Positions 1,935-2,142 of a stretch of 26,453 nucleotides of DNA are shown here, piece by piece. A program made the translations under genes and the position numbers. The stretch lies in IMG/VR virus record IMGVR_UViG_3300005528_000049; one strand, given 5' to 3'. The number at the start of each line of letters is the position of its first letter. Position 1 is the stretch's first letter. Below the pieces are notes generated by a model that worked only from the letters and a program-made list of their open reading frames with translations, did no database searches and had not been told where the DNA came from. This DNA comes from a virus (taxonomy: Duplodnaviria; Heunggongvirae; Uroviricota; Caudoviricetes).

Positions 1935-1991
1935 AAAGATGATTCAGCAATTAATGTATTCAACTTATAACTGAAAAACACAATCATCTTG
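1935..1991 (+). ncRNA. Array unit 4: anticodon stem-loop mimic (UAU)
   Basis: ttcaa-CTTATAA-ctgaa at 1959-1975. Confidence 0.7.
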
Positions 1992-2003
1992 ATTACATCT
2001 TTT

Positions 2004-2063
2004 AAGAGATGGATCAGCAACTTCTGTATCTAACTTTTAATTAGAATAACAAAAGCCATCTTG
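2004..2063 (+). ncRNA. Array unit 5: anticodon stem-loop mimic (UUU, Lys)
   Basis: Perfect 5-bp stem with 7-nt loop: tctaa-CTTTTAA-ttaga at 2029-2045. Confidence 0.75.
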
Positions 2064-2074
2064 TAAACTTTTCT

Positions 2075-2142
2075 AAAGATAGTTCAGCAACTATAATAAT
2101 AACACTCTGCTTCATACGCTGACTAAGTTAAAAACTATCTTG
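2075..2142 (+). ncRNA. Array unit 6: anticodon stem-loop mimic (CAU)
   Basis: tctgc-TTCATAC-gctga at 2106-2122, with one U-U mismatch. Confidence 0.7.

What the first reader, a model, noticed from the sequence alone, without database searches (positions are those of the whole stretch)
1935..2142. Three consecutive units display isolated anticodon stem-loops (UAU, UUU, CAU): candidate decoys for anticodon nucleases
Seen: 5-bp stems with 7-nt loops of canonical Y32-U33-NNN-A37 form: CT-TAT-AA (1964-1970), CT-TTT-AA (2034-2040, perfect stem) and TT-CAT-AC (2111-2117). They complement units 3 and 9, which have bodies but no anticodon loop. Known: tRNA-Lys(UUU) is cut by PrrC and PARIS AriB, and CAU tRNAs by several VapC toxins. 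Inference: protein-protected, untranslatable anticodon arms could absorb host anti-phage tRNases or act as sensors. Caveat: AT-rich loops can match this pattern by chance, but three adjacent matches at the same position of the scaffold argue against chance.
Basis: partly seen in the sequence, partly recalled or inferred. Interest (0 to 1): 0.85.

Follow-up and report, generated by a model that had tools for sequence, protein, structure and literature searches.

The report
Anticodon-arm-like hairpins on phage Y RNAs
Three small RNAs in a phage array that serves a Ro60-like protein carry hairpins that look like tRNA anticodon arms. The look alone is at chance level in this AT-rich DNA, but related phages show that such hairpins are a real, recurring module; whether they decoy host tRNA-cutting enzymes is untested.

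Summary
The three hairpins are at the stated coordinates. Only unit 5 has a perfect 5-bp stem; unit 4 has an A.C next to the loop and unit 6 a U.U inside the stem. All three are thermodynamically marginal.

Units 4 and 5 are tandem paralogs, so "three adjacent matches" is not evidence by itself.

Comparative data do give support. Units 4-6 belong to 10+1 Y-RNA-like "handle" RNAs (9-bp covarying stem plus CAGCAA) beside a DUF2828 gene whose model has the Ro60 fold.

- Units 4 and 5 match a unit type conserved in related phages. Its stem covaries and its loop is always 7 nt (C32, U36, A37, A38 conserved), but U33 is kept in only 6 of 16 orthologs.
- Across near and distant phages, 7-nt C-U-NNN-A-A loops are strongly enriched on these handles (7 of 14 distinct loops against 0.15 expected; 1-3% in flanking DNA).

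Anticodon-arm-like cargo is therefore real. Decoy function remains an untested inference.

This scan has already met the same protein-RNA system on other DNA, in at least eight other genomes. I could not find its RNA half in the literature.

The parts
1936..1991 (+). Unit 4: handle RNA. It has a 9-bp closing stem AAGATGATT/AATCATCTT, the CAGCAA motif and a 31-nt insert. The apical hairpin is at 1959-1975 with loop CTTATAA at 1964-1970.
   Evidence: Sequence; unit scan; CM R1 hit of 66.5 bits. It aligns in register with the conserved 'type A' units of related phages. Its A.C at the loop-closing pair is the only unpaired cell at that pair in alignment A2.
2006..2063 (+). Unit 5: handle RNA and tandem paralog of unit 4. 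The apical hairpin is at 2029-2045 with a perfect 5-bp stem TCTAA/TTAGA. Loop CTTTTAA (2034-2040) is identical to the tRNA-Lys(UUU) anticodon loops of related phages.
   Evidence: The isolated hairpin folds at -0.3 kcal/mol.
2076..2142 (+). Unit 6: handle RNA with a 42-nt insert. The candidate hairpin is at 2106-2122 (TCTGC/GCTGA, with a U.U mismatch). Loop TTCATAC (2111-2117) is identical to the tRNA-Met(CAU) anticodon loops of related phages. No homologous unit was found elsewhere.
   Evidence: In the MFE the conserved TCAGC of the handle pairs with GCTGA of the insert instead.
1647..2515 (+). The whole array of 10 handle RNAs. Units 3 (1794-1909) and 9 (2318-2450) are YrlA-like permuted tRNA bodies. 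Unit 7 (2158-2234) has a T-arm-like hairpin. The others carry short hairpins.
   Evidence: Motif scan. Rfam YrlA hits of 39.3 and 24.6 bits, both below the gathering score of 69. CM R1 hits. No ORF of 60 aa or more lies in 1556-2489. RNA-library contigs span the array.
2526..4052 (+). Ro60-like protein gene (DUF2828 + DUF7788; TROVE-like ring plus vWA domain with a DxSxS MIDAS motif). It is the presumed binding partner of the handles.
   Evidence: Pfam E-values 1e-39 and 6e-45. AF2 model with pLDDT 85.7. Foldseek top hits are phage phiLo Ro60, Rsr and Xenopus Ro60, E about 1e-7, TM 0.55-0.6. D308, S310 and S312 are invariant.
6411..6467 (+). Orphan 11th handle RNA, lying between tRNA-Leu(UAG) and tRNA-Glu(UUC).
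   Evidence: 70.8 bits; tRNAs.
156..1211 (+). RNA ligase gene upstream of the array, on the same strand. It supplies an RNA-repair context.
   Evidence: Pfam RNA_ligase PF09414, E 1.3e-11.

Best explanation
Units 4, 5 and 6 are three members of a tandem array of small Y-RNA-like 'handle' RNAs of an AT-rich freshwater phage related to jumbo cyanophages.

Each unit has a 9-bp closing stem, an adjacent CAGCAA motif and an A-rich opposite strand. I infer that this handle is the docking site for the Ro60-like protein encoded immediately downstream. The variable apical part is the cargo.

In units 3, 7 and 9 the cargo is a tRNA body or a T arm. In units 4 and 5, and less surely unit 6, it is a short hairpin built like a tRNA anticodon arm: a 4-5-bp stem and a 7-nt loop with C32, usually U33, and A37 and A38.

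By analogy with known Y RNAs, I infer that the handle holds the Ro-like ring while the arm-like cargo engages a protein that normally recognises tRNA anticodon arms. The particle then acts in the phage's tRNA maintenance or repair programme.

Shown here: the scaffold, its covariation, its linkage to the Ro-like gene, the covariation of the unit 4/5-type hairpin, and the enrichment of anticodon-loop-like loops across the family.

Inferred only: protein binding, processing into separate RNAs, and the identity of the partner (a host anticodon nuclease, a tRNA modification enzyme, or a repair enzyme such as the neighbouring ligase).
For: Scaffold
- 170 units lie on the gene's strand and 0 on the other strand in 108 related loci.
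- In distant lineages the counts are 172 against 22 overall, and 98 against 5 for short units.
- The closing stem covaries.

Partner protein
- The model has the Ro60 fold.
- A phage Ro60 has been shown to bind two upstream Y-like RNAs and host PNPase (PMC12135203).
- YrlA-type tRNA mimics next to Ro60 genes are known in 254 bacteria and 22 phages (PMC4201824).

Hairpin of units 4 and 5
- In the 16-unit alignment A2, all five stem pairs show changes on both sides, and 0 of 500 shuffles reach the observed covariation score.
- The loop is always 7 nt. A37 and A38 are invariant, and C32 is present in 14 of 16.

Enrichment of anticodon-loop-like loops
- Near family: 7 nt is the modal loop size (24 of 61). 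10 of 21 distinct loops fit Y-U-NNN-R-N, against 2.3 by permutation. C-T-NNN-A-A occurs 6 times, against 0.21. Reversed loops give 0.
- Distant lineages (37-46% protein identity, some with G+C-rich stems): 7 nt is again modal (20 of 52). C-T-NNN-A-A accounts for 7 of 14 distinct loops and 13 of 20 units, against 0.15 expected.
- Flanking DNA of the same loci: 7-nt loops make up 10-12% of best hairpins. Of those, 7-12% fit Y-U-NNN-R-N and 1-3% fit C-T-NNN-A-A.

Context
- The loops of units 4, 5 and 6 are identical to anticodon loops of tRNA-Ile(UAU), tRNA-Lys(UUU) and tRNA-Met(CAU) genes in related phages.
- The arrays sit inside phage tRNA clusters.
- They lie beside RNA ligases: here, and RtcB in a Listeria phage.
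- Relatives also place the same handle in the anticodon-loop position of otherwise complete tRNA bodies.
- The array is present in freshwater metatranscriptome contigs from several studies.
Against: - Within the window the pattern is at background frequency.
- Units 4 and 6 have stem mismatches, and all three hairpins are marginally stable in the nearest-neighbour model.
- U33 is the most invariant anticodon-loop base (148 of 149 in real tRNAs of these loci). It is kept in only 6 of 16 orthologs of units 4 and 5. Strict anticodon-loop geometry is therefore not under selection in the nearest lineage.
- Unit 6 has no homolog.
- The set used for alignment A4 was chosen because its members form hairpins, so its 93% pairing is not an independent test.
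- No data here show binding, processing or any partner.
- The RNA evidence consists of contigs, which could contain DNA and cannot show RNA ends.
Confidence: 0.5

Rival explanations
1. The arm-like hairpins are held on the Ro-like protein and act as decoys, competitive inhibitors or sensors for host anticodon nucleases such as PrrC-, PARIS AriB- or VapC-type enzymes. They would protect host or phage tRNAs during infection.
For: - All the evidence that the cargo is anticodon-arm-like applies here too.
- The phage context is tRNA clusters plus an RNA ligase, which fits a conflict over tRNA integrity.
- Phages are known to counter PARIS with their own tRNA variants (PMC11464382; PMC12409363).
- The orthologs of units 4 and 5 keep U36-A37-A38 invariant. 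Many units continue with U39, and U36-A37-A38-U39 is the motif shared by the AriB targets Lys(UUU), Thr(UGU) and Asn(GUU).
- UUU and GUU are among the commonest displayed triplets.
Against: - No nuclease, cleavage or protection was observed.
- 23 distinct hairpins display 15 different triplets, including Gly, Cys, Ser and Phe types that are not known as nuclease targets.
- U33 is lost in most near orthologs.
- AriB needs D-loop contacts and distal determinants that are absent from an isolated arm.
- The stability of the window's three hairpins is marginal.
Confidence: 0.15
2. The resemblance is not mimicry. The apical hairpins merely cap the handle, or they bind a partner such as PNPase through a U-rich/A-rich loop. 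In that case the 5'-pyrimidine/3'-adenine polarity reflects general loop stacking (U-turn) preferences and AT-rich composition, not tRNA.
For: - The pattern occurs at background frequency in the window.
- The hairpins are marginally stable.
- U33 is not conserved in near orthologs, while U36, A37 and A38 are. That pattern looks like a sequence-specific loop motif (C-N-N-N-U-A-A) rather than a variable anticodon.
- Other units on the same scaffold have loops of 3 to 11 nt without this pattern.
- Known bacterial and phage Y RNAs tether PNPase without an anticodon-like module.
Against: - The enrichment holds against within-loop permutation, reversed loops and native flanking DNA. It also holds in lineages with G+C-containing stems.
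- 7 nt is the modal loop size in two separately sampled sets.
- The same scaffold demonstrably carries other tRNA parts: T arms and whole tRNA bodies.
Confidence: 0.28
3. The loops are U-turn 'kissing' loops that base-pair with another RNA, such as a tRNA anticodon, an mRNA, or another unit. They would guide the Ro-like particle to an RNA target rather than to a protein.
For: - Y-U-N-R loops are the usual recognition loops of antisense RNAs (my own knowledge, not tested here).
- The middle three loop positions vary between orthologs while the frame is kept.
Against: - No complementary target was sought or found.
- Three to five nucleotides of pairing is weak without a protein.
- Nothing in the data specifically favours this reading.
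Confidence: 0.05

Closest known systems
YrlA-type bacterial and phage Y RNAs with Ro60/Rsr (Rfam RF02553; Chen et al. 2014, PMC4201824)
   Same: - Small RNAs are encoded next to a Ro60-fold gene and on its strand.
- The 5' and 3' ends form a stem with a conserved motif beside it.
- The cargo mimics tRNA. Units 3 and 9 of this array hit the YrlA model.
   Different: - The protein belongs to Pfam DUF2828/DUF7788, not the TROVE family as annotated.
- The motif is CAGCAA, not GNCGAA.
- There are ten units in tandem.
- Units 4-6 carry no tRNA body at all, only an anticodon-arm-like hairpin, which is the very part that YrlA lacks.
- No Rfam hit covers units 4-6.
Thermus phage phiLo Ro60 with Yrl1/Yrl2 and host PNPase (PMC12135203; PDB 9KOP, 9L5Y)
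   Same: - A phage Ro60-fold protein, and the top structural match of the model here.
- Y-like RNAs lie upstream of the gene, and binding has been shown experimentally.
- The RNAs have stem-bulge-stem architecture.
   Different: - phiLo has two RNAs with a CGAA bulge, and no anticodon-arm-like cargo is reported.
- The partner shown there is PNPase.
- Sequence identity to the protein here is about 17% in the structural alignment.
Phage-encoded tRNA variants that neutralise tRNA-cleaving defences (T5 tRNA-Lys, tRNA-Thr and tRNA-Asn against PARIS AriB; PMC11464382, PMC12409363)
   Same: An RNA-based phage answer to anticodon-arm nucleases. The anticodon arms involved end in U36-A37-A38-U39, as do unit 5 and many homologous units.
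   Different: Those are complete, decoding tRNAs that replace the cleaved ones. They are not isolated arms on a protein scaffold. No decoy mechanism has been shown for them or here.
Anticodon-arm mimicry in the E. coli thrS operator
   Same: An isolated hairpin that imitates a tRNA anticodon arm is enough to be recognised by a tRNA-binding protein.
   Different: That is a cis-acting mRNA element for autoregulation of a synthetase. It is not a trans-acting small RNA on a Ro-like particle.

Membership tests
Y RNA / Ro60-associated small RNA | Encoded close to a Ro60-fold protein gene and on the same strand | tested here: met
   The array ends 11 nt before the gene. 170 units lie on the gene's strand and 0 on the other in related loci. 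The Ro60 fold is shown.
Y RNA / Ro60-associated small RNA | Terminal stem formed by the 5' and 3' ends, supported by covariation | tested here: met
   In the 9-bp stem, 4 pairs change on both sides and 95% of cells are paired. Compensating variants are visible within the window itself.
Y RNA / Ro60-associated small RNA | Conserved Ro-binding motif of the described families (GNCGAA/CGAA bulge; Rfam YrlA gathering score) | tested here: not met
   The motif here is CAGCAA. Units 4-6 give no Rfam hit, and units 3 and 9 score 24.6 and 39.3 bits against a gathering score of 69.
Y RNA / Ro60-associated small RNA | Physical binding to the Ro-like protein | not testable with these tools
   Inferred from linkage and from the phiLo precedent.
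tRNA anticodon stem-loop (mimic) | 5-bp stem closing a 7-nt loop | tested here: inconclusive
   Unit 5 is perfect. Units 4 and 6 have 4 of 5 pairs. Orthologs of units 4 and 5 always have a 7-nt loop and a covarying 4-5-bp stem. Predicted stability is marginal.
tRNA anticodon stem-loop (mimic) | Invariant U33 | tested here: not met
   U33 is present in units 4-6 and in 10 of 14 distinct loops of distant lineages. It is present in only 6 of 16 orthologs of units 4 and 5, against 148 of 149 real tRNAs.
tRNA anticodon stem-loop (mimic) | Pyrimidine at position 32 and purine at position 37 | tested here: met
   C32 is present in 14 of 16, and A37 and A38 in 16 of 16, of the orthologs. C-T-NNN-A-A is enriched 30- to 50-fold over permutation and is far above the 1-3% found in flanking DNA.
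tRNA anticodon stem-loop (mimic) | Recognition by anticodon-arm-binding enzymes, or presence of loop modifications | not testable with these tools
   Needs biochemistry or modification mapping.
RNA decoy of anticodon nucleases | Bound or cleaved by a tRNA-targeting nuclease, with protection of the phage | not testable with these tools
   No nuclease gene or cleavage data are available. Published AriB determinants are only partly present: U36-A37-A38-U39 in unit 5, and no D loop.

The most novel reading that the evidence does not exclude
Phage Ro-like particles use interchangeable handle RNAs to display single tRNA parts. The anticodon-arm units would be protein-held decoys or inhibitors of host anticodon nucleases. 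This would be an RNA-based anti-defence class not described so far. It would be present in hundreds of phages, including Felix O1-like, P100-like and cyanophage lineages and mycobacteriophages with this gene.
Probability: 0.15. Interest if true: 0.9.

Novelty: new variant of a known kind. Interest (0 to 1): 0.6.

Why it matters
What the tRNA-like parts of bacterial and phage Y RNAs are for is still an open question. A family in which the same protein-binding handle carries a whole tRNA body, a T arm alone or an anticodon-arm-like hairpin alone splits the mimic into parts that can be tested one at a time.

If the arm-type units engage anticodon nucleases, or repair or modification enzymes, that would link Ro-like particles directly to the phage-host conflict over tRNA integrity.

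The protein family occurs in 711 phage records, several of them culturable model phages, so the experiments are feasible.

Tried and rejected
- No whole genome is held for this window. I could not compare the displayed triplets with the phage's full tRNA set.
- The promoter and terminator scan of 1400-4300 gave fewer promoter-like sites than shuffles and no terminator on the + strand. It says nothing about transcription units.
- The sequence search of the protein against solved structures found nothing. Only the fold search did.
- The shuffle test on the window's inserts (6 units against 1.9 expected) is confounded. The same regular expression matches T loops, and any real hairpin beats a shuffle. 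I replaced it with loop-permutation and native-background controls.
- RNA runs. Six freshwater metatranscriptome runs hold the stretch, but they are kept as contigs. These cover the whole 9 kb at low depth and cannot show small-RNA ends or rule out DNA. Contigs start at 1580/1581 in two studies, and depth over the array is about 1.6 times that of the gene in two runs. These are weak hints only.
- A test for excess of known nuclease targets among the displayed triplets found only a mild excess of UUU, GUU and UGA, three each among 23. I do not count this as support.
- No homolog of unit 6 was found. A mycobacteriophage unit with loop TGCATAC and two distant units with loop CTCATAA are similar loops, not homologs.
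- Literature searches for DUF2828, for phage Y RNAs and for anticodon-arm mimics found no description of these handle RNAs or of arm-type cargo.

Full report
**What is there**

The window is AT-rich (29% G+C) phage DNA. Between a pentapeptide-repeat gene (1214-1555) and a 508-codon gene (2526-4052) lies an ORF-free stretch holding ten tandem units. An eleventh copy sits between two tRNA genes at 6411-6467.

Every unit has the same frame: a 9-bp stem whose two halves change together from unit to unit, the motif CAGCAA directly after the 5' half, an A-rich run before the 3' half, and a G after it. Units 3 and 9 match the Rfam YrlA model below its gathering score (39.3 and 24.6 bits against 69). 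By inspection they are permuted tRNA bodies, with a T arm, a closed acceptor hairpin, a D arm and an open anticodon stem.

The downstream gene carries Pfam DUF2828 and DUF7788. An AlphaFold model built on 20 homologs (pLDDT 85.7) has as its best structural matches:
- the Ro60 of Thermus phage phiLo,
- Deinococcus Rsr,
- Xenopus and human Ro60 (E about 1e-7, TM 0.55-0.6).

A DxSxS MIDAS motif is invariant.

The family occurs in 711 phage records, among them mycobacteriophages where it is annotated 'Ro-like RNA binding protein'. The best hits are Synechococcus phages B3 and B23 at 50% identity. An RNA ligase gene lies upstream on the same strand.

**The observation**

- Only unit 5 has a perfect stem. 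Unit 4 has an A.C at the loop-closing pair and unit 6 a U.U in the middle.
- In the nearest-neighbour model the isolated 17-mers fold at 0.0, -0.3 and -0.3 kcal/mol. The pairs have probabilities of 0.1-0.23 inside the units.
- The unconstrained MFE recovers only the unit 5 hairpin.

The pattern itself is therefore at background.

Units 4 and 5 are tandem paralogs (44 of 59 aligned positions identical; TRF period 70). 'Three adjacent matches' therefore amounts to at most two independent ones. The same regular expression also matches the T loops of units 3 and 9.

**Homologs**

Protein-guided searches brought in 26 viral and 80 metagenomic loci at 26-57% identity, plus one contig identical to the window (L072). 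A simple scan (9-bp stem + CAGC[AT]A + complement + G) finds 170 units on the gene's strand and none on the other, with 79 distinct inserts. A covariance model of the scaffold agrees. The arrays lie inside phage tRNA clusters of up to 26 tRNAs per locus.

Units 4 and 5 align in register with the unit that stands first upstream of the Ro-like gene in these relatives, which I call type A. On that alignment of 16 units:
- All five pairs of the apical stem show changes on both sides, and no shuffle reaches the observed covariation score.
- The loop is 7 nt in every member.
- A37 and A38 are invariant, U36 is nearly so, and C32 is present in 14 of 16.
- The position equivalent to U33 is T in only 6, A in 4, C in 4 and G in 2.

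In the 149 distinct anticodon arms of real tRNA genes of the same loci, U33 is present in 148. So the hairpin of units 4 and 5 is real and selected, and it shares size and several loop positions with an anticodon arm. Its nearest lineage, however, does not keep the most diagnostic base.

I took one best hairpin per short unit, with no reference to loop sequence.

| Set | Modal loop size | Y-U-NNN-R-N | C-T-NNN-A-A | Reversed loops |
|---|---|---|---|---|
| Near family | 7 nt (24 of 61) | 10 of 21 distinct loops (2.3 by within-loop permutation) | 6 (0.21 expected) | 0 |
| Distant lineages | 7 nt (20 of 52) | 8 of 14 distinct loops (1.5 expected) | 7 of 14 distinct loops, 13 of 20 units (0.15 expected) | 0 |
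| Flanking DNA, random 35-nt pieces | 7-nt loop in 10-12% | 7-12% of those | 1-3% of those | - |

The distant set came from a second search with the protein alignment. It added 68 loci of 37-46% identity whose handle reads ACAGCAA. There, 172 units lie on the gene's strand against 22 on the other, and 98 against 5 for short units. Examples with firm stems include ATAAGC-CTGTTAA-GCTTAT, ATAGA-CTTTTAA-TCTAT, ATAGA-CTGTTAA-TCTAT and TATGA-CTGTTAA-TCATA. Several of these lie directly upstream of the Ro-like gene, as type A does.

The loops of units 4, 5 and 6 are letter-for-letter those of tRNA-Ile(UAU), tRNA-Lys(UUU) and tRNA-Met(CAU) genes in related phages. For units 4 and 5 this follows from the C-U...A-A frame. 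For unit 6 (U-U-CAU-A-C) it is more specific, but unit 6 has no homolog.

The pairing statistics of alignment A4 are not independent, because its rows were chosen as hairpins.

**Further context**

- Relatives also contain complete, non-permuted tRNA bodies in which about 52 nt replace the anticodon loop. That insert is the same handle turned inside out: first the 3' half of the stem, then a small loop, then the 5' half and CAGCAA.
- Other units carry a T arm alone (TTGG-TTCGATT-CCAA).
- The handle is thus a portable module attached to whole tRNAs or to single tRNA parts. This makes an anticodon-arm reading of the 7-nt-loop units more natural.
- A Listeria phage of the family has RtcB 1.3 kb downstream of the gene.
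- A P100-like Listeria phage shows very abundant unexplained RNAs upstream of its Rsr-like gene (PMC12282133).
- Phage phiLo Ro60 binds two upstream Y-like RNAs and host PNPase (PMC12135203).
- Jumbo-phage surveys list a ROT/TROVE protein among RNA-repair genes (PMC7824862).

**Expression**

Six freshwater metatranscriptome runs from six studies hold the stretch. Their contigs cover the whole 9 kb laid, at low depth.
- Contig starts fall at 1580/1581 in two studies.
- Depth over the array is about 1.6 times that of the gene in two runs.

These are weak hints. Contigs cannot show small RNAs or exclude DNA. The same runs do prove that real phage RNA is present. A back-joined contig (6258 to 5939, 320 nt) stands at about 16 times the depth of its flanks in all four runs. 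This is what a circularised group I intron of the tRNA-Leu(UAA) gene would give.

**Mechanism**

I commit to the tether model of Y RNAs. The Ro-like ring binds the handle, and the cargo selects the partner. For units 4 and 5, and less surely unit 6, the cargo imitates an anticodon arm and should engage a protein that reads anticodon arms.

Which protein is open.
- In its favour: the tRNA-conflict context; the invariant U36-A37-A38 of type A, which with U39 is the motif shared by AriB targets (PMC12409363); and UUU and GUU being among the commonest triplets.
- Against it: 15 different triplets among 23 distinct hairpins; loss of U33 in near orthologs; marginal stability; and AriB's need for D-loop contacts.

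Modification enzymes are equally possible. U36-A37 is the known determinant set for t6A37 (my own knowledge). Repair enzymes such as the neighbouring ligase are also possible. A non-mimic reading remains a serious rival: a conserved C-N-N-N-U-A-A protein-binding loop, or a mere cap.

**Novelty**

Ro60-Y RNA particles with tRNA-mimic cargo are known (PMC4201824), and a phage example has been solved (PMC12135203). I could not find three things in the literature: the DUF2828-type protein with its CAGCAA handle, arrays of ten units, and units whose only cargo is an anticodon-arm-like hairpin.

Earlier notes of this scan describe the same protein-handle system in at least eight other genomes. One of them mentions anticodon-arm mimics. 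I used these as leads only, and tested the enrichment independently here.

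Noticed in passing
window 5939-6258 (tRNA-Leu(UAA) gene about 5896-6307): In all four metatranscriptome runs laid, a 350-nt contig joins 6258 back to 5939. That is a 320-nt circle at about 16 times the depth of its flanks. G6258 precedes the 3' exon, which starts AAAA. The tRNA's C32-U33-U34 ends at 5929, so the circle lacks the first 9 intron bases, as in classical truncated group I intron circles. Rfam gave no Intron_gpI hit here at E up to 1.
   Followed up: partly
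L001:5662-5779, 5835-5947, 6096-6209, 6212-6329; L007:5586-5705, 5880-5991; L027:5869-5978: These are complete, non-permuted tRNA bodies (Rfam tRNA 36-53 bits) in which 51-65 nt replace the anticodon loop. The insert is the same handle in inverted order: 3' half-stem, small loop, 5' half-stem, CAGCAA. In Synechococcus phage B23 one of them is annotated 'tRNA-Undet'.
   Followed up: partly
window 7230-8286: A release-factor gene (PCRF + RF-1 domains) is called only from residue 16 of the PCRF profile match. I did not examine it. The window also encodes tRNA-Leu(UAG).
   Followed up: no
window 15518-15817, 16777-16883, 17470-17576: Three group I intron matches on the + strand (75.7, 39.1 and 25.1 bits; gathering score 50) lie among short ORFs. 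They probably interrupt one or more genes.
   Followed up: no
L109:1461-2012 (Listeria phage LMSP-25): A ROOL RNA match (88.5 bits, gathering score 99.1) lies 1 kb upstream of the DUF2828 gene and next to a 'tRNA-OTHER'. RtcB lies 1.3 kb downstream of the gene. This may relate to the abundant unexplained RNAs reported for a P100-like phage (PMC12282133).
   Followed up: no
L001:3528-3779: A cyanobacterial-type permuted tmRNA (116 bits) is encoded within the phage tRNA cluster, just upstream of the handle units and the Ro-like gene.
   Followed up: no
L043-L046 (units just upstream of the gene) and L133:4097: Some arm-like units display triplets that would pair with stop codons: loop CTTCAAA (UCA) with covarying bulged stems in L043, L044 and L046, and loop CTTTAAA (UUA) in L133.
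   Followed up: no
window 1703-1718, 1781-1792, 1992-2004, 2064-2074, 2143-2156, 2235-2246, 2304-2316: The spacers between units are themselves similar (G-TAAAC-N-TT-N-TCTA before the next AAAG). This suggests a shared processing or promoter signal.
   Followed up: no
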